Source of the DNA: Bacillota bacterium | GTDB lineage: Bacteria; Bacillota; Dethiobacteria; DTU022; UBA8154 | Reading direction: 5' to 3' | NCBI GenBank assembly: GCA_029778075.1 | Contig: JAKORA010000071.1 | Location: forward strand, 1 to 51,433 | Length of the DNA stretch: 51,433 nucleotides | Part shown: one piece after another, positions 27,140 to 51,433 of the stretch | Position numbering within the stretch: the stretch's first letter is position 1 | Layout: each line of letters begins with the position of its first letter | Translations under genes and position numbers: made by a program | The notes under the pieces: generated by a model | What the model was told of the DNA's origin: nothing | Databases searched by the model: none | What the model saw: only the letters and a program-made list of their open reading frames with translations

Positions 27140-27214
27140 TCCTCAGTAGCTCAACGGTAGAGCAACCGGCTGTTAACCGGTAGGTTGCAGGTTCGAATCC
27201 TGCCTGGGGAGCCA
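27140..27214 (+). tRNA. tRNA-Asn (anticodon GUU), CCA encoded
   Basis: Acceptor TCCTCAG / CTGGGGA, anticodon arm ACCGG-CTGTTAA-CCGGT, T-loop GGTTCGAATCC, 3' GCCA. Confidence 0.9.
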
Positions 27215-27222
27215 TTTTATCT

Positions 27223-27298
27223 GGGCCCATAGCTCAATTGGCAGAGCTACCGGCTCATAACCGGTTGGTTCTAGGTTCGAGTCCTAGTGGGCCCACCA
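27223..27298 (+). tRNA. tRNA with CAU anticodon (elongator Met type; an Ile2-lysidine identity cannot be excluded), CCA encoded
   Basis: Acceptor GGGCCCA / TGGGCCC, anticodon arm ACCGG-CTCATAA-CCGGT, T-loop GGTTCGAGTCC. G1-C72 argues against an initiator tRNA. Confidence 0.85.
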
Positions 27299-27313
27299 TT
27301 TATGTCTTTTTTC

Positions 27314-27389
27314 GGCCCCTTCGTCTAATCGGTGAGGACACCAGCCTTTCAAGCTGGCAACAGGGGTTCAAATCCCCTAGGGGTCACCA
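27314..27389 (+). tRNA. tRNA-Glu (anticodon UUC), CCA encoded
   Basis: Acceptor GGCCCCT / AGGGGTC, anticodon arm CCAGC-CTTTCAA-GCTGG, T-loop GGTTCAAATCC. Confidence 0.9.
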
Positions 27390-27390
27390 G

Positions 27391-27465
27391 GGGCGAATAG
27401 CTCAGTGGGAGAGCACCTGCCTTACAAGCAGGGGGTCCGGCGTTCAAATCGCCGTTCGCCCACCA
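27391..27465 (+). tRNA. tRNA-Val (anticodon UAC), CCA encoded
   Basis: Acceptor GGGCGAA / TTCGCCC, anticodon arm CCTGC-CTTACAA-GCAGG, T-loop CGTTCAAATCG. It starts 1 nt after tRNA-Glu. Confidence 0.9.
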
Positions 27466-38054: not shown

Positions 38055-39014
38055 TTGTGCAATGTGTTTGAAAACTTCCGGCTGGCACGCTACCGGATAA
38101 CTATTACAGCAGGAAAAGATGGCTTATCGCTACCTCCCTACAAAGGATCCACCTTTCGCGGCGGGTTTGGGGGAGTGTTCAGGCGTATTGTCTGTTCAAT
38201 GAGGCAGGCTGAGTGTGGGGATTGTCTGCTGCGAGAACAGTGCCCCTATGCCTACATTTTCGAAACCTCCCCCCCGCCGGACACGCAGGCCTTGAGTAAA
38301 TACGAAAGCATCCCCCGCCCGTTTGTTATAGAACCCCCTCTGGAAACGAAAACAGAATACTTGCCCGGAGAAAGCCTGTTTTTCCATCTTATTCTTGTCG
38401 GACGCGCCATACAGTACCTCCCCTACTTTATTGTTGTTTTTCGGGAAATGGGTGAAGCGGGCCTCGGCAAGAAGCGGCGCTCTTTCAATCTCGAAGATGT
38501 TGCGGCTATAGGGCTGGATGAAAGCCAATCCATTTATTCTGCTCAAACAAATACGGTTCAAAACCTGGATTTGGCCTTTTTAGGCTCTCAGCTCATTAAA
38601 AAATTTCCTGCTGCAGCCCGCAGGGCGGAGGTTACCTTTGAAACACCGGTACGCTTAAAGGATGAGGGTAAAATTGTCAGGCGTCCGGATTTCCATGTTT
38701 TCTTCCGCCAGGCCATGCGCCGCCTCTCCTCACTATCCTATTTTCATCACGGAGAAACGCTGCAGGCCGATTATGCAGGGTTGTCAGAACGTGCCCGGAG
38801 TATTTCGCTGATAAAAAACGCTACCTCCTGGCATGATTGGGAGCGCTACTCCCGCCGCCAGGGGCAGCGCATGAACATGGGCGGATTGGTGGGCACGGTG
38901 GTCTATGAGGGAAAGCTCGACGAGTTTCTGCCCTGGCTGATCCTGGGAGAACAGGTCCATGTGGGAAAGAATACAGTTTTCGGCCTGGGTAAATACCGGA
39001 TGTCAGTTCGCTGA
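38055..39014 (+). CDS. cas6: CRISPR pre-crRNA endoribonuclease Cas6 (RAMP)
   Basis: LPPYKGSTFRGGFGGVF N-terminal RAMP motif, Cys cluster CSMRQAECGDCLLREQCPY, and a C-terminal glycine-rich loop HVGKNTVFGLGKY. The start may be GTG 38064. Confidence 0.8.
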   Translation: MCNVFENFRLARYRITITAGKDGLSLPPYKGSTFRGGFGGVFRRIVCSMRQAECGDCLLREQCPYAYIFETSPPPDTQALSKYESIPRPFVIEPPLETKTEYLPGESLFFHLILVGRAIQYLPYFIVVFREMGEAGLGKKRRSFNLEDVAAIGLDESQSIYSAQTNTVQNLDLAFLGSQLIKKFPAAARRAEVTFETPVRLKDEGKIVRRPDFHVFFRQAMRRLSSLSYFHHGETLQADYAGLSERARSISLIKNATSWHDWERYSRRQGQRMNMGGLVGTVVYEGKLDEFLPWLILGEQVHVGKNTVFGLGKYRMSVR

Positions 39015-39034: not shown

Positions 39035-40051
39035 TTGCATATCATTGTTTTATTGTGTTATATTTTTTTTAACAAAAGTTTGGTGATCCTTTTGAACAAA
39101 ACGGAGCGTATCATCAAGGTGATTCTTGCTTTATCGCAAAATCCCGCCGCTTCTGCGACTGAGCTTGCCGGCCAACTACAGGTTTCAGAACGCTCTATAT
39201 ACCGCTACCTGAAAGATATCAAGCATCTTGGCTTTCCATTACACAATTTTAAAGACCCGGAAGCTGGTTTGCGTAGGCATTACCTGACGCCTCTAACCTT
39301 TACTGCCTCAGAAGCGTTGGCGATTATCGCTGCTGGACAGTCCTTGCTTTCTCAGGAGGGGCTTCCCATCTGTGAAGACCTGGAAACTGCTCTGCTTAAA
39401 GTAAAAGCGGCAATTTGCTCAAACGAAGAAAAGCGAGCTTTTTACCGCTTGGAACCTCGATTTACTTACCTGGGTGAAAAAATACGCGATTATACACCCT
39501 GGCAGGTACTTATTCAGCAGCTAATTGAATGTATCTACCACTGCCGCTCTATTACAGTTGTCTACGATTCTTTTTCCAGCGATGAAATAACAGAAAGGAA
39601 AATCGATCCATACGATCTTTACTGGAACAAGGGCAACCTTTATTTGGCAGCCTACTGCCATAAACATAATGACATACGCAGCTTCCGCATTGACCGCTTT
39701 AAATCCCTGAAAAATGTTGGAGAACGCTTCAACCGGGACCCCAAATTTGATTTGTCCGAATTCCTTGGTCCAAGCTGGCAGGTCTACCGGGGAAACGAAG
39801 AGGTGTGCAAAGTAAAAATACTAGTTTATCCTCCGGCGGCACGCCTTTTTCGCGAAACACGCTACCATGAAACACAGGAACTGGAGGAGTTGGAAGGCGG
39901 TAGGCTTTACTGCACCTTAACAGTATACGATTCTCCCGAATTTCGGAGCTGGCTCCTCGGCTGGGGAAGCCAGGTGGAAGTTTTGGAACCGGCGAAACTG
40001 CGTGATGGGATAAAGGAAGAGCTGGTGAAAAGCGTGCAGTTGTATAAGTAG
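39035..40051 (+). CDS. HTH-WYL-WCX transcriptional regulator (CRISPR-associated WYL protein)
   Basis: HTH (ATELAGQLQVSERSIYRYLKDI), a WYL domain (IDPYDLYWNKGNLYLAAYCHKHNDIRSFRIDRF) and a WCX-like tail (GWGSQVEVLEP). The true start is probably GTG 39083 or TTG 39092. Confidence 0.75.
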   Translation: MHIIVLLCYIFFNKSLVILLNKTERIIKVILALSQNPAASATELAGQLQVSERSIYRYLKDIKHLGFPLHNFKDPEAGLRRHYLTPLTFTASEALAIIAAGQSLLSQEGLPICEDLETALLKVKAAICSNEEKRAFYRLEPRFTYLGEKIRDYTPWQVLIQQLIECIYHCRSITVVYDSFSSDEITERKIDPYDLYWNKGNLYLAAYCHKHNDIRSFRIDRFKSLKNVGERFNRDPKFDLSEFLGPSWQVYRGNEEVCKVKILVYPPAARLFRETRYHETQELEELEGGRLYCTLTVYDSPEFRSWLLGWGSQVEVLEPAKLRDGIKEELVKSVQLYK

Positions 40052-40203: not shown

Positions 40204-42825
40204 GTGTTAGAGATGGTAAAAAGTGTCATTTTGCAACGAGCGATAGAGTGGATGCTCAAACGTAATTGGAAAAGGCTAGTGGCTAAGCGGAAATATTTTA
40301 ACCAAAGTTTATTTGAACATGTACTTGTGGAATTAGATGCGACTCTCCAGCTATTGCCATTGCTGAGGCTGCCCTGCCATTTAAACCTTACTCTAGAGGA
40401 AGAAGAAATAATTGTGACGGCAGTTATCGCCCATGACGTAGGCAAAGAAAGACCTGAATGGCAGGAGTACATATTGGGCCGAAGGCCTTTCCTTTCAGAC
40501 ATAGATCCTGAACTTACAAGGAAAGTAATACCAGAACTTTGTGCTGCCCTTGGTTTTTCTGATGTTGGTAGAAAAGCAATTGCAGTTATAGAAAATTGTG
40601 TTAATTTGCATATGAGCGGGGAGCGCACCGACGCCAATGTCGTATCGGCAGCTCTGCGCGGGACAGACAGGTGGTATACTCTGGCCAACTTGGTTTTTCA
40701 TATTGACAATATTTGTTCTGCTAGAGGTGTCTTTGAAGCAAAAATTGCTCTAGAAAGAAGCTTGTTAGGTAAGCACTTGAAAACAGCTTACCACCAAATA
40801 AACATCCGCGGTGTGTCTTCAACCGTCTTGCACCGGGCAGCCCTGGAAGCTTTCCAGGGAGCGGGCTGGATTCCCCTGCTCCATTTTAGTGACGCCACGC
40901 TTTACGTCGGGTCGGCTGCTGAACCAATAAAAGCCCCTTTTATCGACCAAATTGAAAATAAATTGGCCTTGATTTTAGATGAAATAGTGAGTTCTGAAGT
41001 AGTGCCCCTGGTAATAGGAAGCGAGATGCAGGACTTTTTGCCAAAGCCTGAACTTTTTGATTATCGCGAGCTCGAAGCCTATCTCTGGGAGGCGAGCAAA
41101 AGAGCCAACCCTTTGAATTTTAAAAAGAAAAAACCTGAATACAAAGCCGATGTTGTAAAAAAGTACCTGGATCTTTGTAACATTTCCTTTGACTCTTTTG
41201 ATTCTTCTAGCATTGATTTATACACCGAGCGCATTGGCATAGCCCGCCGGGAGATGGCTGTTTTGCGGTTTTTCAAGTACGCCATGAGCTCGGATTTAAT
41301 CGGAAAAGATGGCGTAAGTATTGCAAAGCAAGAATATGAAAATATTTTTGGCCAGGGAGCATGGGAAGAGCTTACGAGCATGTCCACATATATGCCGGCA
41401 CCGGATATGAAAAGGGTAGATCGTTTTTGGGCGTTGCCGGGGTGCCAATTTGGCATTAATGTCAGTACTATAGAAGAGCTTGCAAGTGAGGAGCGCGTAA
41501 AATTGCTAATTGAACTTTTATCCCAAATCGCTGTTAAAGTTTATTCAGCCATATCAAGTCCACCTACACGGGCTACCCTTGCACGTGAGATGGCGGCGGG
41601 ATTTATGCAGGATTTAATAAGTCCTGCTGACGATTTTAAGCCGCTGGAAATAGCCAAACATCAAATGGAATTTTATGCCATCTCTAAACCTTTTACCGGT
41701 AAGCAGACCAGGAAAGCACGCTATTTATGCCCCATATGTAATACCTCCTTTGAGACAGGAATTAAAGCAAGTGCAGACTTTATTGATAAGCCTGAGGCCC
41801 ACACTAACAGGGGTGTAGCCCACGGAGCCTTTGGTTATGTTACTATTTGTTACACCTGTTATTATGAGAGAATTTTGCGCCAGGTTCTTTTAGGCGAACG
41901 GGCAAAGGAGCTCATTGTTATTTTCCCGCGTATGAACATCGGGGCTGAAACCGGAGAACTATTGGTGGAGAAAGCACGTTCATTTTTCCAACGGGCTTAC
42001 GCTCTTATGGTTGCCGATGAAGGTGAACCAGACCTTCATTTGAGCATGGCGCTTACTCATTTTATCTTCGAACAAATTTTGAAACAGGACTTTTCCCACC
42101 TTGACCCGGCCCAGCTTGCCGAGCTGCTTACCTATCGTTCAAGCAAAGAGAACAGGAGAAGAAATCTGCAAAAATTGTCGAAAGCATTGCAAGAGGCTTA
42201 TGGGGAAGATTTAGAGGAGGCTAATATCGCTTGGGGGACAACCTTTTCTTTATGGGACGAAGCTGTTGAAGCAGTATATGCCAATAAGGTTAACGATGAT
42301 GAGGCACGTAGAATTCGTGCTGAAGTTTACCAATTGCATCCCCGAATGAAGCTTGTATGCCAAACACCGCATATGGCTTTGCTGCCGCTTAGTTACACTA
42401 TTAGGCTTAATGAAGATTCAGAAGCCAATGCTGCCTTACGTCGGACTTTTATAGCGATTTTTATGGGTCTGGGGCTAGATGCGTCGGTTGCCATTGTTTC
42501 TAGTAGCGATGAAATTGACTTCCAGGGAGGTGAAGGTGTTGCTTTCGTTCCGCCGGTGGCTTCTATTCGCCAGCTTATTGGCTCTAACTGGGTGCAGCTT
42601 GACGAAGCGGAACGCTGGCTGAAAAGCATTGGCATAGCAAGTATCTTAGCGGATAGCGGAAGCTATTCTAAAAGAGCAGGCTTGTTAGAGGTTTTGTTGG
42701 CTCCAACTCCCGGGCATGTTCTCCGCCGTATTGAACTAAAGAAGAATGAGGAAAAGAAGCCTTTGAGGTACCAGGATATTGTTTATTTGCGTATTTTGGC
42801 TGAAGTAACAACCCCATCTATGTAA
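40204..42825 (+). CDS. cas10d: Type I-D large subunit Cas10d with an N-terminal HD nuclease domain
   Basis: HD-domain motifs: H39 in the sequence FEHV, H77-D78 (VIAHDVGKE, nt 40432-40437), NLHMSG and VFHIDN. Cys4 finger CPIC...CYTC (nt 41728-41859). No GGDD cyclase motif was seen. It is followed by Cas7/Cas5 genes and an HD-less Cas3. ATG 40213 is an alternative start. Confidence 0.7.
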   Translation: MLEMVKSVILQRAIEWMLKRNWKRLVAKRKYFNQSLFEHVLVELDATLQLLPLLRLPCHLNLTLEEEEIIVTAVIAHDVGKERPEWQEYILGRRPFLSDIDPELTRKVIPELCAALGFSDVGRKAIAVIENCVNLHMSGERTDANVVSAALRGTDRWYTLANLVFHIDNICSARGVFEAKIALERSLLGKHLKTAYHQINIRGVSSTVLHRAALEAFQGAGWIPLLHFSDATLYVGSAAEPIKAPFIDQIENKLALILDEIVSSEVVPLVIGSEMQDFLPKPELFDYRELEAYLWEASKRANPLNFKKKKPEYKADVVKKYLDLCNISFDSFDSSSIDLYTERIGIARREMAVLRFFKYAMSSDLIGKDGVSIAKQEYENIFGQGAWEELTSMSTYMPAPDMKRVDRFWALPGCQFGINVSTIEELASEERVKLLIELLSQIAVKVYSAISSPPTRATLAREMAAGFMQDLISPADDFKPLEIAKHQMEFYAISKPFTGKQTRKARYLCPICNTSFETGIKASADFIDKPEAHTNRGVAHGAFGYVTICYTCYYERILRQVLLGERAKELIVIFPRMNIGAETGELLVEKARSFFQRAYALMVADEGEPDLHLSMALTHFIFEQILKQDFSHLDPAQLAELLTYRSSKENRRRNLQKLSKALQEAYGEDLEEANIAWGTTFSLWDEAVEAVYANKVNDDEARRIRAEVYQLHPRMKLVCQTPHMALLPLSYTIRLNEDSEANAALRRTFIAIFMGLGLDASVAIVSSSDEIDFQGGEGVAFVPPVASIRQLIGSNWVQLDEAERWLKSIGIASILADSGSYSKRAGLLEVLLAPTPGHVLRRIELKKNEEKKPLRYQDIVYLRILAEVTTPSM

Positions 42826-42887
42826 TATTTAATATTTTTCTATTTTAATATGTCTCCTGCAAAGAAGGTAAAGGAGGTTTATTCTTA

Positions 42888-43532
42888 GTGCGTACTCCGA
42901 TTTTTGTCCGAATCAAGCGATTTGATCTGGAGAGTGTTAGCTCAGATATTGAGTCTGTACGCCGTTGTTTTGATTCTTATTTAGATAGCTACCCGGTAAA
43001 ATCTTCTCGTTCCAAACACAGCCTTATGGGCCCTGTGGGTAAAATACTGCAGGAAGTTAAAAGTGGCAAGTGGGATGCCGATTCCCTTGCTGGATATGCT
43101 TTAAATATCCATCTTACAAATCCTAAAGCAAAAGGTTTTATTTCCCAGGAAGCTAGAAACTCTTTAACGGAAGGAATTAATAGGCTCTTAACCCTTTTAA
43201 AAAGTTCGCCAGTTACCGTACATGATAAAATACTGGATCGAATTGATTACGGACTATATTTTATGCGGCGAGCTAAAGTAATGGAGGCTTTTGAAAAGCT
43301 TCGTCAGGAATTTGCTGTTTTTTTGCGCCATAAATATGGAACATCAGAAAAACTGACTGAAGTCTGGGGTGAAAAATCGGCAGACTATGGTCCTGATTTT
43401 AGTAGAGTGCCATATCCGGGAAGGACACTATTTGAAAAAGCTAAAGGTCAGAAGAAAGCTGACATAAGCGAATTTGCACAGCAAGCCAAACTTAAAGGTT
43501 ACGAACTTATTGACGAGGAGGAGGAAATCTAA
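42888..43532 (+). CDS. Unassigned 214-aa protein inside the effector operon (candidate stand-alone small subunit, Cas11d-like)
   Basis: GTG 42888 lies 10 nt after AAGGAGG. The protein looks helical and charged, with an acidic tail LIDEEEEI. Its stop overlaps the csc2 ATG (TAATG), and the GAGGAGGAGG in its last codons serves as the csc2 Shine-Dalgarno. I recognise no family motif. Confidence 0.35.
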   Translation: MRTPIFVRIKRFDLESVSSDIESVRRCFDSYLDSYPVKSSRSKHSLMGPVGKILQEVKSGKWDADSLAGYALNIHLTNPKAKGFISQEARNSLTEGINRLLTLLKSSPVTVHDKILDRIDYGLYFMRRAKVMEAFEKLRQEFAVFLRHKYGTSEKLTEVWGEKSADYGPDFSRVPYPGRTLFEKAKGQKKADISEFAQQAKLKGYELIDEEEEI

Positions 43533-44479
43533 TGAGTGCCAAAGATGCTTTTGCGAGAATTCAAACCTATTTGCTTGAGAAACCGCGGCCGCTTATTGGT
43601 GCGGAAACGATTCAACTTGTTTTAATGCGAGAGATATTAGATTACACAATTCTCCGCACGGAAGAAACGCGGGAGTTAAAGACCCTCCACACTCCTTTCT
43701 CCATGACCAAGAACGACCAAACTGTACGCCGCGTCGCCTTTCTGGCTACGAAACAGAAAGCCGCTGAGTCTCGGGAATTAGAACATCTGCTTAGGACAGC
43801 GCGTAAAGTAGCAGGGTTGCCAGAACAGGAATGTTATTTAAAGGATAATTTGTGCATGAGTTGCCCTCGTTGTGGTCTTTATGGGGCAACGAGTACTCTT
43901 GCCGGGCAGCAAGAGCGGGCGAATATCAAGCACCGTATTGAATATTCTACAGCTTTTTCGCTTCTCTCTTTTGAAGACGTGGCTACTGCTGCTACCTTTA
44001 ATGCTATTAATGACCGCAACCAGATAACTGGACAAGCTTTGGGCCAGCGTTTTGCTGTGCAACCGGCTACATTATTTCCGTCAATAGTTACTTTAAAGAG
44101 TGTTACTAAACTAGAATTAATCATGGTCGTTAAAACCCTTTTATCATGCAAGAGCTACGGGGCAGAAAGCCGTATTGGAGGTGATGTGCGGAACAGCATC
44201 TGGGGGATTGTTGCTGGTTGGGAAGAAGTGATTACATCTTTAGAGCTTACTTTAGAATTGGCTGATAAATTGGATAACCTGAATTCAAATATAATTAAAG
44301 AGATCCTTGAGGAAAAGTACAAGCTAATGACTGGTAACCCGCAGCATGTGACTGTGCTTGAGCCGGAAGAGGTCGAGGGGCTGATCCAAGCGTGCGCGAA
44401 TATAGATCTGGATAAAGCGTTTTTGGAAAAAGCTTATCAAGATGTTGCAGATTACCGGAATGAACAACTAGCACGCTAA
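43532..44479 (+). CDS. csc2: Type I-D Cas7 backbone subunit (Csc2/Cas7d)
   Basis: 315 aa in the position after the large subunit. RAMP-like pattern with a Cys cluster CYLKDNLCMSCPRCGLYG. The call relies mainly on operon context. Confidence 0.65.
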   Translation: MSAKDAFARIQTYLLEKPRPLIGAETIQLVLMREILDYTILRTEETRELKTLHTPFSMTKNDQTVRRVAFLATKQKAAESRELEHLLRTARKVAGLPEQECYLKDNLCMSCPRCGLYGATSTLAGQQERANIKHRIEYSTAFSLLSFEDVATAATFNAINDRNQITGQALGQRFAVQPATLFPSIVTLKSVTKLELIMVVKTLLSCKSYGAESRIGGDVRNSIWGIVAGWEEVITSLELTLELADKLDNLNSNIIKEILEEKYKLMTGNPQHVTVLEPEEVEGLIQACANIDLDKAFLEKAYQDVADYRNEQLAR

Positions 44480-44504
44480 AAATTTGGGATATAAGGGGAT
44501 TATA

Positions 44505-45233
44505 ATGAGCAGCGCTATTTCTTTAAAGGAAAAAGGTATTCGGGTATTTAACTGCCGCCTCTATAATCATGACTATTTATGGTTTTCCTCGTATGAGATT
44601 AGCAAGATTTCGTCAACAATTCCAGTACTCCATAATTATGCTCTTACCTATTCTTTTGGTGATTATTCTTATGGCGTTTTTAAAGGTTCTGTCCCTCGTT
44701 ACAAAGAAGACCTGGCTCGTATACCTCTTTATGCTACTCCTGCTCTGGCAAATTATTGGAGTCGAACTCGCATTACTTATAATGCTGTTAACAGCCACTC
44801 TTTACGCACGGATGATGCGCCTCGTGGAATCAATTCACCTGACCTGGGCTGGCGAAATTATCTCGACCCGGTTTATCCAGGTGGGGGGCATAATGCCCAG
44901 CAAACAGGTTTCATCTGTTACCTGTTTACTTTTGACGGCAGAATTCCAAAAGGAGTAACGCGTTTGGGTAAAAAAGGTACAGCTATGCGAGTATGTTGGC
45001 AGGAAATAGAGAATCCCGTAGCAGTATTTCAGAAAGAACCAATACAGCCAACCCACCCTATAAACCCTCTTGATATTTCTGGCGAGATTGTTTTTTATGA
45101 ACCGGTGAGCATTCCACCGCATATGTTGTTCAAAACTGCCGAGATTAAAAATGACTGGTTTATTTTTGCAGGACCGCATCGCATCCATATTCCTAATCAA
45201 GTAATAAATAGAGGTTGTAAAAAGGATGGATAG
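44505..45233 (+). CDS. csc1: Type I-D Cas5 subunit (Csc1/Cas5d)
   Basis: 242 aa from ATG 44505 (6 nt after AAGGGG). N-terminal segment YLWFSSYEISKISSTIPVLHNYALTYSFG. It lies between Cas7 and Cas3, and its stop overlaps the cas3 ATG. Confidence 0.65.
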   Translation: MSSAISLKEKGIRVFNCRLYNHDYLWFSSYEISKISSTIPVLHNYALTYSFGDYSYGVFKGSVPRYKEDLARIPLYATPALANYWSRTRITYNAVNSHSLRTDDAPRGINSPDLGWRNYLDPVYPGGGHNAQQTGFICYLFTFDGRIPKGVTRLGKKGTAMRVCWQEIENPVAVFQKEPIQPTHPINPLDISGEIVFYEPVSIPPHMLFKTAEIKNDWFIFAGPHRIHIPNQVINRGCKKDG

Positions 45234-47268
45234 CCTAAAAGTACGGCCTTTAGTGCTGCCTTTAATAAAGCATCCCTCTACAAAACAAATGCTTTATCCA
45301 CACCAGGCGGCAATGCTTGAAAACTGGAATAAATATAATACATTTACGCTTGTCACAAAAACGGGAACGGGCAAGACTATGGGGGCAGTATTGCCTGTAC
45401 TTTTAAACAGGCAACGGGCAATTTGTGTGTATCCTACTAATGAGCTTATTCGTGACCAGGTCAAAAACATCGCTAGTATTGCTGAAAGAGAAGGGCTTAA
45501 GGCTTGTATTTTGACCCTTGAGACTACCGTCGAAGAGTATTCAAAAGCAGACGTTATTTTGACGCATATTGATGCTTTTACCCTGGAAGCTTGGTGTAAG
45601 CAAAAACATTGGCGTGAAAAATGGAGAGCATTAAAAGAACTGTTAGAAGCCGATAAACCTAAGATTATTTTCACTAACCCAGACATTCTTTTTTTGATCT
45701 TTGCTTTGCGCTATCATGCTGAGCCATTTGCTGCATTGTCTGGCTATAACGTTTTAATTGTCGATGAATTTCATCTATATACAGGGGTTGAATTAGCCCA
45801 TGCTTTATTCATGCTCCATCTAGGCTACAGCTTGGGCTTTTTTGAGAAAATCGTTCTTTTATCAGCCACACCTTCACCTGAAGTTTACGAATATTTGCAG
45901 GTGTTGCTCAACGATCCCTTTTGTGTAGATTCAACAACAGGCAAAACGGGTGGTTCTGATTTTCTCGGCGAAGAGCGCGTTGCTGTCCACGAAGTAGAAT
46001 TAATTCCTTTCTTGGCTGGGCAGGATATAGTAGAAACAGCTGTGGTTATAGTCAAAAAACTGTCAGAAGAAATTATTAAAGTCTGGAAGCAAAATACAGG
46101 AGTTGGCTACATCCCTGCTGTAATTGTCCTCAATTCTGTGGTTGACGCTATCCGCTTAGAAGACCGGCTGGCAGAGGAAGGTTTTAAGCGCAAGGAAATG
46201 GCCATCATAAGGGGCCTTTCAGCACGAGAAGTGCGCAACACATCAGGGAAAAAAATCGCCATAGGGACTTCTGCTATTGAGGTGGGGATAGATTTTCAAT
46301 GCGATTACCTTATTTTTGAAGCGAGTGAGGCTGCTTCTTTCATGCAGCGCTTTGGGCGGGTGGGGCGGCATAAACCAGGTGTTGCCTATGTACTTTGTCC
46401 ACCAAACGTTCTCTACGGAATAGAAACTTTGAAAGAAAAAGGGATTGAATTAGATCGCGCTGTTTTAGAGGAAAAGGCATATAACTGGTTTCCTTCTTTT
46501 GAAACAAGAGCATGGTTTGTAAGGACACTTATGGGTTTGCTTTCGGCCTTTACCCTTGGTGAAAACTTAATAAAGTGCGTTCGCGAAGATTTCAAAGCTA
46601 CTCCAGCACTGATAACAGAAGTGGAATCACAAATGGAGAATCAATATACTTCATATGGTCAAAAAATTGGTTGCAAGGATAGTATACTTAACAGCGCGCT
46701 CTATAAACTGCGGAAAGCACGTCAAGGCAACGCTAGGCTTGAATGGTTAAGGGTATATCGAGACCTCAACACTTTTCGTACTTCCCTTCCCAGCGAGTGG
46801 ATACTTGATTTTGCTGAATTAGAACGCCGAGGTGGTGATTGGGAAAAAGCTAAGTATACTGCAGATTTGGCGACTTTGCTTCGGCGTGCTGAGGGTTTGC
46901 GTTTTAACTCCAAAATTCGTCACCCGACTGGTAATAAAGGAATGCTCACTGTCAAAGGTTATGGTCGATATAAAAAAGTATGGATTATACCAGAATTTAG
47001 AGATGAACAAATTGGATTTTTACACTGTACTAAAGACTTTCCTAATATGCTTTTTATTCAAGAGGGCCATAAAACTTCAGTTTCTCATATAATGTCGTTG
47101 CGCAATCATGTTTTTGTAGTTGTACCAAAAAGTATATTGCATCAGCTTGACTGGCGTTTACCTGTGTTTGACTGCGGGAAGCATCTTATCGGCTTTGATG
47201 GAGTCGCCCTAATCTTAATAGAACTTTATAACTTAACATCTCAAACAAGTTATTTAAGTAGCATTTAA
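45226..47268 (+). CDS. cas3: Cas3' SF2 helicase without an HD domain
   Basis: Walker A KTGTGKT (45358-45378), DEFH box (45763-45774), LSATPS, and the motif VI-like FMQRFGRVGRH. No HD motifs are present in the 680 aa. Confidence 0.85.
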   Translation: MDSLKVRPLVLPLIKHPSTKQMLYPHQAAMLENWNKYNTFTLVTKTGTGKTMGAVLPVLLNRQRAICVYPTNELIRDQVKNIASIAEREGLKACILTLETTVEEYSKADVILTHIDAFTLEAWCKQKHWREKWRALKELLEADKPKIIFTNPDILFLIFALRYHAEPFAALSGYNVLIVDEFHLYTGVELAHALFMLHLGYSLGFFEKIVLLSATPSPEVYEYLQVLLNDPFCVDSTTGKTGGSDFLGEERVAVHEVELIPFLAGQDIVETAVVIVKKLSEEIIKVWKQNTGVGYIPAVIVLNSVVDAIRLEDRLAEEGFKRKEMAIIRGLSAREVRNTSGKKIAIGTSAIEVGIDFQCDYLIFEASEAASFMQRFGRVGRHKPGVAYVLCPPNVLYGIETLKEKGIELDRAVLEEKAYNWFPSFETRAWFVRTLMGLLSAFTLGENLIKCVREDFKATPALITEVESQMENQYTSYGQKIGCKDSILNSALYKLRKARQGNARLEWLRVYRDLNTFRTSLPSEWILDFAELERRGGDWEKAKYTADLATLLRRAEGLRFNSKIRHPTGNKGMLTVKGYGRYKKVWIIPEFRDEQIGFLHCTKDFPNMLFIQEGHKTSVSHIMSLRNHVFVVVPKSILHQLDWRLPVFDCGKHLIGFDGVALILIELYNLTSQTSYLSSI

Positions 47269-48029
47269 TAGCAAATTGTTTTACAAACAGTCTGGAAATT
47301 ATCCTAAGCACACAACCATGCAATAAAGTGACCGGTATTAGAAATATCTGAAATGATTATAGATATAATATCTCTTTAGCCCTAAATAATTTAAAGAAAC
47401 GCATATGTTATGTTAAAACTTTATTAAGAATAGAGTGCGTTGGGAAATAAAAAGTATACTGATGAGTTCAACATGGAAGAAATTAATAGTGAAACGGGTA
47501 ATATCTATAAAAAATCAAAAGGGGGTTGATTACAACATCAAAAGGACCTACACCGAAAGAAAACAAGGCTGTGCAAATTTTCGGTAAGAGTGTTGTGCTT
47601 TTGTCGGCCACGTCTTATTGCTACTGAAATAGAAAAGGTAGGTGTTGCCCTATAGTAGGAGAGTAAATTGGAGGCATTAGTTCAATAACGTAGACATTTT
47701 AAATTCTACCAGTGGCGAAGACTGCTTTTGCTTTTGTAACTTATTCTGCTGGAAAGAAATATATTCTTCGGAATATAAACCTGAATATCTGTTCTGCCAA
47801 CAAAATGTTTTTTCCATGTAATGATTACTCTGCTATTATACATCTTGGCTTCCTTTAAAAATATTGAATCTCCTACAAAAAACATACTGGTTTGGGGCGA
47901 TATTTGAGGAGCCAGGTTGTTAACGGAATGATAAAAATATTTAAGAAACATTTAATATTTTTAAAATATTGCCGATAAAATGTAAAAACCCCTCATTTTT
48001 GAGGAAGATTCTTTCCAGGAGAGTTTTTT

Positions 48030-49037
48030 ATGAACCTCGTCATTAACAACTATGGCTCCTTTATCGGCAAAAAGAGTGAACGGTTGGTCGTTAAGGAAAA
48101 CGGCAAGGTGGTCCATGAAGTGCCTTTTTTTGACCTTTCCCAGGTTACGGTAACAACGGCCGGTGCTTCGCTATCCAGCGATGCTATAAAAATGTGCATG
48201 GAATACGGGATACAGATTAATTTTCTTTCCAGCTCCGGTCAGCCTTATGCCAAAATCAGTTCACCGCAGTTGACGGCTACGGTGCAAACCAGGCGGGAAC
48301 AATTGATGGCATACCTGGACCAAAGAGGTGTTGCGCTGGCAAAAGCTTTTGTTTACGGAAAAATTAAAAACCAGGTTAATACTCTAAAATATTTTTCCAA
48401 GCACCGCAAGGAAGCCCAAAGGGAAACTTACGAAAAAATTATGGCGGCCGTAAAAAAGATGGAAAATATCTGCAAAGAGCTGGACAGTCTTAACGGAGAG
48501 AAAATTGATGAGTTAAGAGGACAGTTTCTTTCTATCGAGGGAAGGGCTTCCGCTGTATACTGGGATCTTGTAGCGCTAATCCTTGAGGGAAAGGTGGATT
48601 TCCCGGGAAGGGAGCATCGTGGAGCGGAAGATCCCTTTAATTCCTTGCTTAACTATGGGTACGGCATCCTTTACTCTCAGGTGTGGAGTGCAGTTATCCT
48701 GGCCGGTCTTGAGCCGTTTGCCGGATTTATGCATGTAGACCGGCCGGGTAAACCATCTCTTGTCCTTGATCTGATCGAGGAGTTTCGCCAGCCAGTCGTG
48801 GACAGGACGGTTATTGCTATTTTCAGCAAGGGCGCTAAAATACAGCTGGAGGAAGGTAAGCTCTCCGCAGAGACTCGCAAAGATTTTGCGGAAAGGATCC
48901 TGGAGAGGCTGGAGGCAACTGACAATTACGAAGGGAAAAAATTTAGGCTCTCAACTATCATCCAACGGCAGGCTAGAAGCATTGCCTCCTTTGTCCGCGG
49001 AGAAGGAAAGTACCGCCCTTTTGTGGGGGGATGGTAG
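48030..49037 (+). CDS. cas1: CRISPR integrase Cas1
   Basis: 335 aa with FLSIEGRASAVYW, FNSLLNYGYGILYS and GFMHVDRPGKPSLVLDLIEEFR (conserved E/H/D-E residues). Confidence 0.9.
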   Translation: MNLVINNYGSFIGKKSERLVVKENGKVVHEVPFFDLSQVTVTTAGASLSSDAIKMCMEYGIQINFLSSSGQPYAKISSPQLTATVQTRREQLMAYLDQRGVALAKAFVYGKIKNQVNTLKYFSKHRKEAQRETYEKIMAAVKKMENICKELDSLNGEKIDELRGQFLSIEGRASAVYWDLVALILEGKVDFPGREHRGAEDPFNSLLNYGYGILYSQVWSAVILAGLEPFAGFMHVDRPGKPSLVLDLIEEFRQPVVDRTVIAIFSKGAKIQLEEGKLSAETRKDFAERILERLEATDNYEGKKFRLSTIIQRQARSIASFVRGEGKYRPFVGGW

Positions 49038-49294
49038 TGCAGACACTGGTTATTTATGATATTCCAGATGATAAGATTAGAAACAAAATTAGTGAGGCCT
49101 GCAAGGATTATGGTCTTACCCGCATCCAGTACAGCGCTTTCCTGGGCGACATTAACCACAACAGGCGTGATGAACTTCGTCAGCGACTGCGGCGCACCCT
49201 TGGGAAAAAAGAGGGGAATATCCAGATCTATCCCCTGTGCGATAAAGATATCAAGTTAAAGTGTGAAATTGTTAACACTGGAGAAAAAAAATGA
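49031..49294 (+). CDS. cas2: Cas2
   Basis: 87 aa. LVIYDIPDDKIRNKISEACKDYGLTRIQYSAF ferredoxin-like pattern. It overlaps the cas1 stop and the cas4 start. Confidence 0.85.
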   Translation: MVVQTLVIYDIPDDKIRNKISEACKDYGLTRIQYSAFLGDINHNRRDELRQRLRRTLGKKEGNIQIYPLCDKDIKLKCEIVNTGEKK

Positions 49295-49869
49295 TCCCGT
49301 TGCGTGTTTCGGATTTAAAACAATATATTTACTGCCCGCGCATTCTTTATTTTTACTATGTTTTGCCGGTACCCCGCAGGATAACGCGGAAAATGGAATA
49401 CGGTAAATTGGAGCATGTCGAAATACAGCAACTGGAGAAAAGACGAGGGTTGAAGCCCTATGGCGTGCTTGATGGTGAGAGGTCCTTTCATGTTTGGCTT
49501 GAATCTTCACGCTTGGGTTTACAAGGTGTTCTTGATATGATGATTACTTCTACGACCGGTGAGATTTATCCGGTAGAGTTCAAACACAGTATCAGCAAAA
49601 AAGGTTTGCACCAAAAATACCAGCTGGCTGCTTATGCCATGCTGCTGGAGGATATGTTCCGGAAGCCTGTACGGTATGGATTTCTTTACCTGATTCCTGT
49701 TAAGACCATTATCCCGCTCGAAATTACTTGTAGCATGCGTGAACATATCAAAAAAGTCCTCAGCGCTATTAGAAATCTTATTTCAGGTGAGAGAATTCCG
49801 GGTTATGTTCGTTCAAAACACCGCTGCTGTGACTGTGAGTTTCATAATTACTGTGCAGACCTGAGGTGA
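49291..49869 (+). CDS. cas4: Cas4 (RecB-like exonuclease with a 4-Cys cluster)
   Basis: YIYCPRILYF N-terminal Cys, the LDMM...VEFKHS nuclease motif (D...ExK), QLAAYAML, and the C-terminal CCDCEFHNYC. Confidence 0.85.
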   Translation: MIPLRVSDLKQYIYCPRILYFYYVLPVPRRITRKMEYGKLEHVEIQQLEKRRGLKPYGVLDGERSFHVWLESSRLGLQGVLDMMITSTTGEIYPVEFKHSISKKGLHQKYQLAAYAMLLEDMFRKPVRYGFLYLIPVKTIIPLEITCSMREHIKKVLSAIRNLISGERIPGYVRSKHRCCDCEFHNYCADLR

Positions 49870-49873
49870 AGTT

Positions 49874-50785
49874 ATGTATTTTTTAAATGAAGACGAAAGA
49901 AAAAAGCTGCTTAAAGGTTTTCTTCCCAAGTCCCGTGAACAAGCTGTGGCGGAGGAGTTGCGCGGCTGGAACTGGCACCAACCACCTTTAGAGCCTGTTT
50001 ATGAGGTTAGCCTGCCTTTATATCAGGTGGCCGGTAAGTACTGTTCCAGCGGCAGGGATGTCTATTTAAACAGGGTGGAGAAACGAAAAAGTGAAGCCAA
50101 CGATGCCATGCAGCTTGGTTCATTGTTCCACGAATTTATTGTTTATATATTAGTCCGTACAAAAAAGTTGATTTATCAATATGAGTTAAATACAGAATTG
50201 GTCTTCCAGGAATTGAAAAAAGTGCTGCCCGAGTTTTTAGAACGTAAGGCGTTTTTTCAGGAGAAAATTCCCGGTTTAAAGGATAAAATCGAACAACTCT
50301 ACAATTATGAATATTACCGGATTACATCGCGTATTCAGGAGATCCTTTCCAGACAGCCTTACATTGGGGAAGATTCTCTGGTTGCGCAGGTTGTTCCCCT
50401 TGTGCTGGAACAAAAGTTGGACGGATCCCTTCTTGGATTAAGCTCAAATTTAAGCTCAGACGCCTTTGTTTTTTCTGAACCGATGATTATAGATTTGAAA
50501 TTTGGGGCCCCTCAGAATTTTCATCGTTTAACCACAACCGGTTATGCCCTGGTAATGGAGTCTATTTATGAGTACCCTGTTAATATCGGGTGCATTGTTT
50601 ACGGGCAATTTAAAAATGGACGACTTTATATCCAGAAAGATTTTCATATCATCAACGATGAACTTCGTCAGTGGTTTATTGAAGAAAGAGATGAAAAAAT
50701 GAGGATAGTCTACGACGAGATAGATCCGGGGATAGCAGATAACTGCTACGAAACCTGCCCTTTTTATACTTTTTGCCATCGTTAA
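49874..50785 (+). CDS. Second Cas4-like nuclease (Csa1/Cas4'-like)
   Basis: 303 aa. MIIDLKFG (DxK), TTGYALVME, one N-proximal Cys (KYCSSG) and the C-terminal CYETCPFYTFC. It directly follows cas4. Confidence 0.55.
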   Translation: MYFLNEDERKKLLKGFLPKSREQAVAEELRGWNWHQPPLEPVYEVSLPLYQVAGKYCSSGRDVYLNRVEKRKSEANDAMQLGSLFHEFIVYILVRTKKLIYQYELNTELVFQELKKVLPEFLERKAFFQEKIPGLKDKIEQLYNYEYYRITSRIQEILSRQPYIGEDSLVAQVVPLVLEQKLDGSLLGLSSNLSSDAFVFSEPMIIDLKFGAPQNFHRLTTTGYALVMESIYEYPVNIGCIVYGQFKNGRLYIQKDFHIINDELRQWFIEERDEKMRIVYDEIDPGIADNCYETCPFYTFCHR

Positions 50786-50959: not shown

Positions 50960-51433
50960 GTATCATCACTAATCCCGTAAAATAGGGGACTGAAAGAGTA
51001 AGCGTTTACCGGATGTTGGTCCACGATGACGCGTATCATCACTAATCCCGTAAAATAGGGGACTGAAAGAACTTTCAGAGCATGGCTGGCTGCGGGAATG
51101 CCAGCGGTATCATCACTAATCCCGTAAAATAGGGGACTGAAAGATCGGGGCGCAAATATGAATGGGCCATCGAGCCGGATTGTATCATCACTAATCCCGT
51201 AAAATAGGGGACTGAAAGAATAACCCACCGGACTGTTCCAGCATGGACGGAAAAGTATCATCACTAATCCCGTAAAATAGGGGACTGAAAGGAAACTGCA
51301 CGCCGCCATTCCCGGAAGATGAAGCAAGTATCATCACTAATCCCGTAAAATAGGGGACTGAAAGAAATAATTCTTTACACCATTGTCTACACCATGACTA
51401 GTATCATCACTAATCCCGTCAAATAGGGGACTG
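50960..51433 (+). CRISPR. CRISPR array with 37-nt repeat GTATCATCACTAATCCCGTAAAATAGGGGACTGAAAG; 7 repeats visible (the last is cut by the window end) and 6 spacers of 36-38 nt
   Basis: Repeats start at 50960, 51033, 51107, 51182, 51255, 51328 and 51401. The first six are identical, and the seventh has A>C at 51420. Spacers are unique: 50997-51032, 51070-51106, 51144-51181, 51219-51254, 51292-51327 and 51365-51400. Confidence 0.97.

What the first reader, a model, noticed from the sequence alone, without database searches (positions are those of the whole stretch)
42888..43532. Unassigned 214-aa gene wedged between cas10d and csc2: a possible free-standing Cas11d small subunit
As far as I recall, canonical type I-D operons go directly from cas10d to csc2. 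Published work on type I-D reported that the small subunit (Cas11d) is made from an internal translation start inside the 3' part of cas10d. Here the large-subunit ORF is only 873 aa, which from memory is shorter than the ~1000 aa or more of cyanobacterial and archaeal Cas10d. It is followed, after a 62-bp spacer with its own AAGGAGG, by a separate 214-aa ORF that looks helical and charged. That ORF is translationally coupled to csc2: its stop and the csc2 start share TAATG, and its terminal Glu codons (GAGGAGGAGG) form the csc2 Shine-Dalgarno. The simplest reading is that the nested small-subunit gene has become an independent cistron. Alternatively it is a novel accessory subunit. I could not recognise any family motif.
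Basis: partly seen in the sequence, partly recalled or inferred. Interest (0 to 1): 0.7.

Follow-up and report, generated by a model that had tools for sequence, protein, structure and literature searches.

The report
Free-standing Cas11d small subunit gene

Summary
ORF 42888..43532 (+, GTG, 214 aa) has AAGGAGG 10 nt upstream. It lies 62 nt after the 873-aa large-subunit ORF, and its stop overlaps the csc2 start (TAATG).

- The protein matches PADLOC-DB model PDLC01194, 'Cas11d; CAS-I-D; effector_SS', end to end (E 2e-78). The 873-aa protein matches PDLC01192, 'Cas10d; effector_LS', end to end (1106 bits).
- The large-subunit profile is homologous to canonical Cas10d (hhalign 98.8%, E 7e-17; Foldseek finds only Cas10d structures). 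In extended and global alignment it ends at Synechocystis residues 827-845, where Cas11d starts (M830).
- The basic, all-helical core of the 214-aa family aligns colinearly with the Cas11d region (P 4e-5; 32 control windows give P of 0.002 or worse).
- One lineage carries a natural fusion of the large subunit and this protein (1119 aa), with GGAG and ATG at the junction.
- All 22 loci from reference genomes of at least 8 phyla keep the order large subunit, small protein, csc2.

Pfam and NCBIfam do not recognise the family, and the sources that name these proteins, NCBI records among them, call them 'hypothetical protein'. Type I-D papers state that internal Cas11d translation is conserved. The split variant is therefore curated but under-described. 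Whether it is ancestral or a secondary fission is open.

The parts
38055..39014 (+). cas6 (crRNA-processing endoribonuclease)
   Evidence: Pfam PF10040 CRISPR_Cas6, E 4e-22
39035..40051 (+). HTH-WYL-WCX transcriptional regulator of the locus
   Evidence: Pfam WYL 1.6e-18, WCX 7e-18, HTH_11 7e-8. The same gene sits at this position in L001.
40204..42825 (+). cas10d-like large subunit, 873 aa: HD nuclease, cyclase/RRM, zinc finger, palm/RRM and a short helical thumb, with no Cas11 domain
   Evidence: PADLOC PDLC01192 Cas10d, 1106 bits, end to end. hhalign against canonical Cas10d gives 98.8%, E 7e-17. Foldseek hits 7sba_I at E 1.8e-15 and otherwise only Cas10d entries. Invariant H77 and D78, and C509/C512/C549/C552. 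Five helices follow the last strand. Extended and global alignments end at Synechocystis Cas10d residues 827-845.
42871..42877 (+). Shine-Dalgarno sequence AAGGAGG of cas11d
   Evidence: Read from the sequence; 10 nt before the GTG at 42888.
42888..43532 (+). cas11d, free-standing small subunit, 214 aa: basic helical core (about aa 1-140) plus an acidic C-terminal extension (about aa 141-214)
   Evidence: PADLOC PDLC01194 Cas11d, E 2.3e-78, end to end. Family of 127 representatives. AF2 pLDDT 85, all helical. hhalign of the core against the Cas11d region gives P 3.9e-5. The core has pI 9.75.
43515..43534 (+). Translational coupling site: GAGGAGGAGG (terminal Glu codons, which double as the csc2 Shine-Dalgarno sequence) and the TAATG stop/start overlap
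   Evidence: Read from the sequence.
43532..44479 (+). csc2 / cas7d (backbone subunit)
   Evidence: Pfam PF18320 Csc2, 2e-42; TIGR03157, 2e-32.
44484..45233 (+). csc1 / cas5d
   Evidence: TIGR03159 cas_Csc1, 5.5e-17; PADLOC Cas5d, 1.8e-19.
45226..47268 (+). cas3' helicase, type I-D kind, with no HD domain
   Evidence: TIGR03158 cas3_cyano, 8e-45; DEAD and Cas3-like_C_2.
48030..50785 (+). Adaptation module: cas1 (48030-49037), cas2 (49031-49294), cas4 (49291-49869), csa1 (49874-50785)
   Evidence: Pfam and NCBIfam hits for cas1, cas4 and csa1. cas2 is assigned from its position and size only, plus the Cas2 Pfam hit on the gene at the same position in L001; it was not scanned itself.
50960..51433 (+). 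CRISPR array: 7 copies of the 37-nt repeat GTATCATCACTAATCCCGTAAAATAGGGGACTGAAAG. It runs off the end of the window.
   Evidence: The repeat shares ACTAATCCCG...GGGACTGAAA with the Synechocystis I-D repeat quoted in PMC9123187.

Best explanation
The ORF encodes Cas11d, the small subunit of a divergent type I-D Cascade, as a separate cistron.

In this clade the large subunit stops after the thumb domain. The Cas11 module, which canonical cas10d genes carry at their 3' end and also express from an internal start, is a gene of its own between cas10d and csc2.

Shown:
- family membership;
- conserved gene order;
- homology of the large subunit to Cas10d, and where that alignment ends;
- the existence of a fused form;
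- the Shine-Dalgarno sequence and the stop/start overlap with csc2.

Inferred from work on Synechocystis I-D and other class 1 complexes:
- The basic helical core stabilises the R-loop by holding the displaced strand, which allows dsDNA binding.
- The strand is then nicked by the HD domain of Cas10d and unwound by Cas3'.
- A dedicated Shine-Dalgarno sequence and coupling to csc2 let the cell make more small subunit than large subunit, which internal initiation achieves in canonical loci.

The role of the roughly 70-aa acidic C-terminal extension is unknown. The 145-150-aa relatives lack it.
For: - PADLOC PDLC01194 'Cas11d; CAS-I-D; effector_SS' matches residues 1-212 to model positions 1-202 of 202, E 2.3e-78.
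- The rest of the locus is type I-D: Csc2, Csc1, cas3_cyano and an I-D-like repeat.
- The large subunit is a Cas10d homologue. It ends at Synechocystis residues 827-845, against a Cas11d start at M830.
- The core of the family aligns colinearly with Cas11d (18-138 to 2-145) at P 3.9e-5. The best of 32 control windows gave P 0.002, and the reversed profile gave 0.32.
- The two best Foldseek PDB hits of the model are Cas10d (6yes_A and 6yes_B, prob 0.94 and 0.91), and 7sba_I aligns over 147 columns.
- Fusion protein P0394 (1119 aa) is large subunit (9-893, E 2e-70) plus this domain (915-1113, E 5.6e-16). It occurs on 5 contigs, is followed directly by csc2, and has GGAG 11 nt before an in-frame ATG (M907) at the junction.
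- Gene order is conserved in 22 reference-genome loci, in L001 and for the 145-aa short form.
- The core has pI 9.75.
Against: - No Pfam or NCBIfam small-subunit family (Cse2, Csm2, Cmr5, Csa5) matches.
- The curated Cas11d HMM does not hit the Cas11d region of canonical Cas10d proteins, so the link to canonical Cas11d rests on weak profile and structure signals.
- The Foldseek hits are weak (E 0.13 or more, TM 0.30-0.37). The tool does not report which part of Cas10d was aligned, and the separate Cas11d chains of 7SBA were not among the top 50 hits.
- The Foldseek alignment of the large subunit to 7sba_I spans 932 columns, so a small residual Cas11-like element in the large subunit is not rigorously excluded.
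- At 214 aa the protein is larger than typical Cas11.
- There is no experimental evidence for assembly.
Confidence: 0.88

Rival explanations
1. The protein is a clade-specific accessory subunit that is not homologous to Cas11. It could, for example, be an adaptor that recruits Cas3' or regulates the HD nuclease. On this reading it merely occupies the slot after cas10d, and the 'Cas11d' profile name reflects position rather than ancestry.
For: - The link to canonical Cas11d is weak: hhalign probability 70%, and Foldseek E 0.13 or more.
- The curated HMM does not hit canonical Cas11d regions.
- The protein carries a 70-aa extension with a motif seen in GH42 and GH14 enzymes.
- It is larger than typical Cas11.
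Against: - The large subunit ends exactly where Cas11d would begin, and no other small-subunit candidate exists in the locus.
- The 145-150-aa relatives are of Cas11 size and sit at the same position.
- The fused form reproduces the canonical Cas10d-Cas11d architecture, including a junction Shine-Dalgarno sequence and ATG.
- The core is basic and helical.
Confidence: 0.08
2. The large subunit keeps its own Cas11-like C-terminal domain, and the 214-aa protein is an additional paralogous small subunit. The locus would then have a full Cas10d plus an extra cas11, rather than a split.
For: The Foldseek alignment of the large-subunit model to 7sba_I has 932 columns for an 899-residue target. The large subunit ends in five helices.
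Against: - Only about 90 helical residues (5 helices) follow the last strand. That is the size of the 96-residue thumb of S. islandicus Cas10d, not thumb plus Cas11 (224 residues, 10 helices; PMC7689449).
- Extended and global hhalign alignments end at residues 827-845 of 975.
- In the fusion protein the small-protein domain is appended after a complete large subunit.
Confidence: 0.03
3. The ORF is an inserted mobile-element or anti-defence gene, or a chance ORF.
For: Pfam and NCBIfam have no family for it, and its homologues are annotated 'hypothetical protein'.
Against: - It is conserved at the same position in every locus examined, across at least 8 phyla and in archaeal MAGs.
- It is translationally coupled to its neighbours.
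- There is no viral structural match (best E 0.4).
- It matches a curated Cas profile.
Confidence: 0.01

Closest known systems
Cas11d of canonical type I-D (Synechocystis sp. PCC 6803: residues 830-975 of Cas10d, made by internal translation; structure 7SBA)
   Same: - Both follow the thumb domain of a Cas10d with an HD nuclease and precede csc2.
- Both have a basic all-helical core of about 140 residues.
- There is a colinear, weak profile match (P 4e-5).
- The rest of the effector is the same: Csc2, Csc1 and Cas3'.
- The CRISPR repeats are related.
   Different: - Here it is a separate cistron with its own Shine-Dalgarno sequence (62-nt spacer), not an in-frame internal start. The large subunit therefore carries no covalently attached Cas11 domain.
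- It has about 70 extra C-terminal residues with an acidic tail.
- Sequence similarity is too low for HMM-to-sequence detection.
PADLOC-DB v2.0.0 model PDLC01194 'Cas11d; CAS-I-D; effector_SS', with its partner PDLC01192 'Cas10d; effector_LS'
   Same: Both match end to end at high score: 261 bits for the small protein and 1106 bits for the large subunit. The short form P0390 and the fusion P0394 also match.
   Different: Nothing substantive; this ORF is a member. From my own knowledge, the description strings look like those of the Koonin/Makarova Cas profile tables. I could not trace the primary source in the held literature.
Type III arrangement: Cas10 (HD, two palm/RRM domains, zinc finger, thumb/D4) plus a separate Cas11 (Csm2 or Cmr5)
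   Same: The large subunit ends with a short helical thumb, and the small subunit is a separate gene beside it. The backbone is Cas7 (Csc2), which resembles type III Cas7.
   Different: - The locus has a Cas3' helicase and a type I-like HD domain.
- The large subunit matches only Cas10d structures, not Csm1 or Cmr2.
- There is no Pfam match to Csm2 or Cmr5.
Separately encoded Cas11 of types I-E (Cse2) and I-A (Csa5)
   Same: A free-standing small-subunit gene inside a type I effector operon.
   Different: No detectable sequence similarity. The large-subunit family is different (Cas8 rather than Cas10d).

Membership tests
Cas11 small subunit (class 1 effector complexes) | A small protein that is mostly alpha-helical | tested here: met
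   AF2 model with pLDDT 85 and 8 helices, no strands. Relatives of 145-150 aa cover the core, residues 1-140.
Cas11 small subunit (class 1 effector complexes) | Encoded inside the effector module, next to the large subunit and Cas7 | tested here: met
   The order large subunit, this ORF, csc2 holds in the window and in all 22 reference-genome loci, as well as in L001, L009 and L010.
Cas11 small subunit (class 1 effector complexes) | Positively charged surface for nucleic-acid binding | tested here: inconclusive
   The core (aa 1-140) has pI 9.75, with 24 K+R against 16 D+E. Surface electrostatics were not computed.
Cas11 small subunit (class 1 effector complexes) | Several copies form the minor filament and are needed for target DNA binding | not testable with these tools
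   This needs complex purification, structure determination or EMSA.
Cas11 small subunit (class 1 effector complexes) | Match to Pfam or NCBIfam small-subunit models (Cse2, Csm2, Cmr5, Csa5) | tested here: not met
   No such hit for the ORF or for any of 93 family members. Cas11 families are known to be mutually undetectable by sequence (my own knowledge).
Cas11d (type I-D small subunit) | Match to a curated Cas11d profile | tested here: met
   PADLOC PDLC01194, E 2.3e-78, model positions 1-202 of 202.
Cas11d (type I-D small subunit) | Homology to the C-terminal Cas11 domain of canonical Cas10d | tested here: inconclusive
   hhalign gives P 3.9e-5 and probability 70%, colinear over the whole of Cas11d, against P of 0.002 or worse for controls. 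The top Foldseek hits are Cas10d, but at E 0.13 or more and with the aligned region unknown. HMM-to-sequence search gives no hit.
Cas11d (type I-D small subunit) | Produced by internal in-frame translation within cas10d | tested here: not met
   Here it is a separate ORF in a different frame, 62 nt after the cas10d stop. This is the feature that distinguishes the variant. A fused relative with GGAG and ATG at the junction does exist.
Type I-D CRISPR-Cas | Cas10d large subunit with an N-terminal HD (Cas3'') domain and a zinc finger | tested here: met
   It falls below the NCBIfam TIGR03174 cut-off (24 bits against 60).
Type I-D CRISPR-Cas | Csc2 (Cas7d), Csc1 (Cas5d) and a Cas3' helicase without an HD domain | tested here: met
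   PF18320, TIGR03157, TIGR03159 and TIGR03158, all above their cut-offs.

The most novel reading that the evidence does not exclude
This clade preserves the ancestral, type III-like state of type I-D, before cas11 fused to cas10d, rather than being a secondary fission. Its Cas11d has also gained a roughly 70-aa C-terminal module, a helix-hairpin resembling a GH42/GH14 motif followed by an acidic tail. That module would add a function canonical Cas11d lacks, such as docking Cas3', contacting the large subunit (which carries a similar motif at aa 654-687), or acting as a DNA-mimicking autoinhibitory tail.
Probability: 0.2. Interest if true: 0.5.

Novelty: already known. Interest (0 to 1): 0.3.

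Why it matters
1. Annotation. In the protein database, every source name given for these proteins is 'hypothetical protein', NCBI records among them. NCBIfam and Pfam miss both. Loci of this clade therefore look like incomplete type I-D systems.

2. Literature. The type I-D papers I could read state that internal translation of Cas11d is conserved across all Cas10d lineages and that cas11d fused to cas10 (PMC10212523; bioRxiv 10.1101/2020.04.18.045682). A widespread clade with a separate cas11d, plus one fused relative, bears directly on whether fusion happened once, several times, or was reversed.

3. Application. Type I-D genome-editing work has to deal with internal initiation in eukaryotic hosts. 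A natural system with cas11d as its own gene needs no such re-engineering.

Tried and rejected
- Pfam and NCBIfam scans of the ORF gave only sub-threshold noise (FAM192A, GH42, FIMAH).
- phmmer against PDB sequences gave only a weak match to phosphosulfolactate synthase (E 0.003) over residues 130-209. I regard this as the same helix-hairpin motif and not as homology.
- A single-sequence search of the large subunit against PDB found nothing. Profiles were needed.
- An hmmsearch of the broad family profile against PDB returned GH42 and GH14 enzymes for the C-terminal extension only, and no Cas protein.
- Scanning the Cas11d region of five canonical Cas10d proteins against PADLOC gave no PDLC01194 hit.
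- A short-forms-only profile against Cas11d was weaker (P 0.004) than the full family profile.
- The search for related loci with the diverse alignment A4 failed for lack of a conserved stretch. A1 was used instead.
- Foldseek against viral structures found nothing (best E 0.4).
- The Rubrobacter plasmid 149-aa ORF before cas7d was checked as a possible second split. It has no PADLOC hit, and its large subunit is labelled Cas8b, so it was not pursued.
- The 2015 classification paper (PMC5426118) is not held. The 2025 classification paper does not discuss this variant in its main text.
- The argument from large-subunit length was rejected as non-diagnostic.

Full report
**Observation**

- AAGGAGG lies at 42871-42877, 10 nt before the GTG.
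- The upstream 873-aa ORF (40204..42825) ends 62 nt earlier.
- The stop TAA (43530-43532) shares its last base with the ATG of the next gene.
- GAGGAGGAGG (43515-43524) encodes the terminal Glu run and is placed as a Shine-Dalgarno sequence for that gene.

The locus, (cas2 by position and size only), reads in order:
- cas6 (38055-39014)
- an HTH-WYL-WCX regulator (39035-40051)
- the 873-aa protein
- the 214-aa protein
- csc2/cas7d (43532-44479)
- csc1/cas5d (44484-45233)
- a type I-D Cas3' helicase (45226-47268)
- cas1, cas2, cas4 and csa1 (48030-50785)
- a CRISPR array from 50960 to the window end

The 37-nt repeat GTATCATCACTAATCCCGTAAAATAGGGGACTGAAAG shares ACTAATCCCG...GGGACTGAAA with the Synechocystis I-D repeat quoted in PMC9123187.

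**Is it a real gene?**

Yes.
- A search of 5.8 billion proteins found 181 clusters of 210-217 aa proteins. Where a source names them, the name is 'hypothetical protein' in all but one case. They come from Bacillota, Chloroflexota, Desulfobacterales, Thermodesulfovibrionales and methanogen-related archaeal MAGs.
- An alignment of 49 of them has 62% mean column identity and 22 invariant residues.
- An exhaustive HMMER profile search of 1.84 billion representatives found 127 members.
- AlphaFold2 gives a confident all-helical model: pLDDT 85, pTM 0.77, 8 helices.

**What is the 873-aa protein?**

Pfam finds nothing, and NCBIfam TIGR03174 (Cas10d) scores only 24 bits against a cut-off of 60. Other evidence is clear.
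- The profile of its family (A2, 40 sequences) matches a profile of canonical Cas10d (A3, 25 sequences including Synechocystis, Chlorohelix, Halorussus, Chondrinema and C. botulinum) with probability 98.8% and E 7e-17, over residues 30-586 against 71-608.
- Its AF2 model (pLDDT 88, pTM 0.85) has significant Foldseek hits only to Cas10d structures: 7sba_I (E 1.8e-15, TM 0.53), 7sbb_I and 6thh_C.
- The HD residues (H77, D78 and others) and four zinc-finger cysteines are invariant.

**Does it lack the Cas11 domain?**

S. islandicus Cas10d has a 96-residue thumb followed by a 128-residue Cas11 domain, ten helices in all (PMC7689449). In Synechocystis, Cas11d starts at M830 of 975 (bioRxiv 10.1101/2020.04.18.045682).
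- In the window protein only five helices (786-869) follow the last beta-strand.
- When the hhalign alignment is extended (mact 0.01 or 0) or made global, residues 1-873 align to Synechocystis 12-845 or 1-827. The C-terminal slice alone ends at about 831. The protein therefore stops where Cas11d begins.
- Its C-terminal 287 or 104 residues show no similarity to the Cas11d region (P 0.05 and 0.52).

The C-terminal third of these alignments is low-confidence, and Foldseek's 932-column alignment to 7sba_I cannot be inspected. I treat this point as strong but not absolute.

**Is the 214-aa protein Cas11d?**

The clearest single result is that PADLOC-DB v2.0.0 holds a model PDLC01194, named 'Cas11d; CAS-I-D; effector_SS'. 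It matches the ORF over model positions 1-202 of 202 with E 2.3e-78. Its companion PDLC01192, 'Cas10d; effector_LS', matches the 873-aa protein end to end at 1106 bits. The family has thus already been curated as the I-D small subunit.

Independent support:
1. The core of a 93-sequence family profile (aa 1-140) aligns with the Cas11d region of the canonical profile at P 3.9e-5 (probability 70%). With relaxed alignment it is colinear over 18-138 against 2-145. By contrast, 32 control windows along Cas10d and the large subunit give P of 0.002 or worse, and the reversed profile gives 0.32.
2. The best two of 350,542 PDB chains for the model are Cas10d (6yes_A and 6yes_B, prob 0.94 and 0.91), and 7sba_I aligns over 147 columns. 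The E-values are weak (0.13 or more), and the aligned region is not reported.
3. One representative, P0394 (1119 aa), is a natural fusion. Residues 9-893 align with the window's large subunit 10-858 (E 2e-70), and residues 915-1113 match the small-protein profile (E 5.6e-16). It occurs on five contigs from different projects and is followed directly by csc2. It has GGAG 11 nt before an in-frame ATG (M907) at the junction, which mirrors canonical cas10d/cas11d.
4. About two dozen representatives are only 145-150 aa long and cover residues 1-140, the usual Cas11 size. They sit in the same slot between a large subunit of 825-845 aa and csc2.
5. The core is basic (pI 9.75) and the extension is acidic (pI 5.15).

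**Survey**

Of 22 loci from GTDB species representatives, 21 show large subunit, small protein, csc2; in the remaining one (L023) the held DNA ends inside the small-protein gene, before csc2 could be seen. In L034 the small-protein gene was seen only by tblastn. They come from Bacillota (including the isolate Pelotomaculum propionicicum MGP), Chloroflexota, Desulfobacterales, Fischerbacteria, Binatia, Acidobacteriota, Gaiellales and Nitrospira.
- In most, the large-subunit stop and the small-protein start overlap by about 4 nt.
- The window and its closest relatives (L013-L016, 67-69% identity) have a 32-65-nt spacer.
- Two loci have large subunits broken by frameshifts.
- The canonical loci I fetched go straight from cas10d to cas7d.

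**Rivals**

- An unrelated accessory protein is unlikely. The large subunit ends at the Cas11 boundary, there is no other small-subunit candidate, and both the fused and the short forms exist.
- An inserted anti-defence or mobile gene is excluded by the conserved synteny, and there is no viral structural match.
- 'Full Cas10d plus an extra paralogue' is disfavoured by the domain count and.

**Comparison with what is known, and novelty**

Functionally and by membership this is Cas11d. The one defining feature of canonical Cas11d that it does not share is production by internal translation.

The type I-D papers I could read say that internal translation is conserved in all Cas10d lineages and that cas11d fused to cas10. 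The 2025 classification paper does not mention this variant in its main text. However, curated profiles for exactly this large subunit and small subunit exist in a 2023 database. I therefore rate the finding as already known, though under-described and not recognised by Pfam or NCBIfam.

Two questions remain open: whether the split is ancestral (type III-like) or a reversal, and what the 70-aa C-terminal extension does.

**Scores**

Interest is 0.3. It matters for annotation, for the fusion and fission history of large and small subunits, and possibly for heterologous use of type I-D. A specialist with the Cas profile sets would not be surprised.

Noticed in passing
window 43290-43487 (aa ~135-200 of the 214-aa protein): The C-terminal extension matches a helix-hairpin segment of GH42 beta-galactosidases and GH14 beta-amylases (motif F..WL..KYG....L...WG). 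23 of 93 family members hit Pfam PF02449 (best E 5e-6). The family profile hits PDB entry 9ta3_A at E 7e-5. The 145-150-aa relatives lack this extension. Its meaning is unknown; it may be convergent.
   Followed up: partly
window 42163-42264 (aa 654-687 of the large subunit): A similar YG....L...WG motif occurs in a helical insertion of the palm region of the large subunit. hhalign of the small-protein extension (138-174) against this segment gives P 1.3e-4.
   Followed up: no
L011 528-3887 and L012 360-3719: A natural 1119-aa fusion of the large subunit and Cas11d, identical on contigs from ENA and JGI samples. It has GGAG 11 nt before an in-frame ATG (M907) at the junction and is followed directly by csc2, csc1, cas3' and cas6.
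   Followed up: yes
L009 4025-6932 and L010 243-3210: A sister clade with a 145-aa Cas11d-like protein that overlaps the end of a large subunit of 825-845 aa by 8 nt. It is followed by csc2, csc1, cas3' and a Csa3-type regulator.
   Followed up: partly
window 47269-48029: A 760-nt gap between cas3' and cas1 with no ORF longer than 81 aa on either strand. In the Bacillota relative L001, the corresponding gap holds a reverse-strand Uma2-family gene.
   Followed up: no
window 49291-50785: The adaptation module carries both cas4 and a csa1 (type I-A-like Cas4-family) gene. The canonical type I-D loci fetched here have only cas4.
   Followed up: no
window 50960-51433: The CRISPR array starts about 220 nt earlier than Tandem Repeats Finder reported (51182). 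Seven repeats are visible, and the array runs off the window end.
   Followed up: yes
L007 3379-5839 (Rubrobacter radiotolerans plasmid 1): A hybrid locus: a large subunit labelled Cas8b in PADLOC, then an overlapping 149-aa ORF with no family, then cas7d, a CARF protein and cas6. This may be another separately encoded small subunit.
   Followed up: partly
L004 4051-6959 (Clostridium botulinum plasmid): In this canonical type I-D locus the HD domain is a separate 188-aa gene upstream of a 765-aa cas10d. The split is at the opposite end of the large subunit.
   Followed up: no
L033 3420-6145 and L034 3328-5941: The large-subunit genes are broken into 7-9 frame-shifted pieces in two long-contig MAGs. 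This could be decay, or indel errors in the assemblies.
   Followed up: no
window 27140-27465: A cluster of four tRNA genes (Asn-GTT, Met-CAT, Glu-TTC, Val-TAC). It explains the 84-nt 'tandem repeat' reported at 27147-27301.
   Followed up: yes
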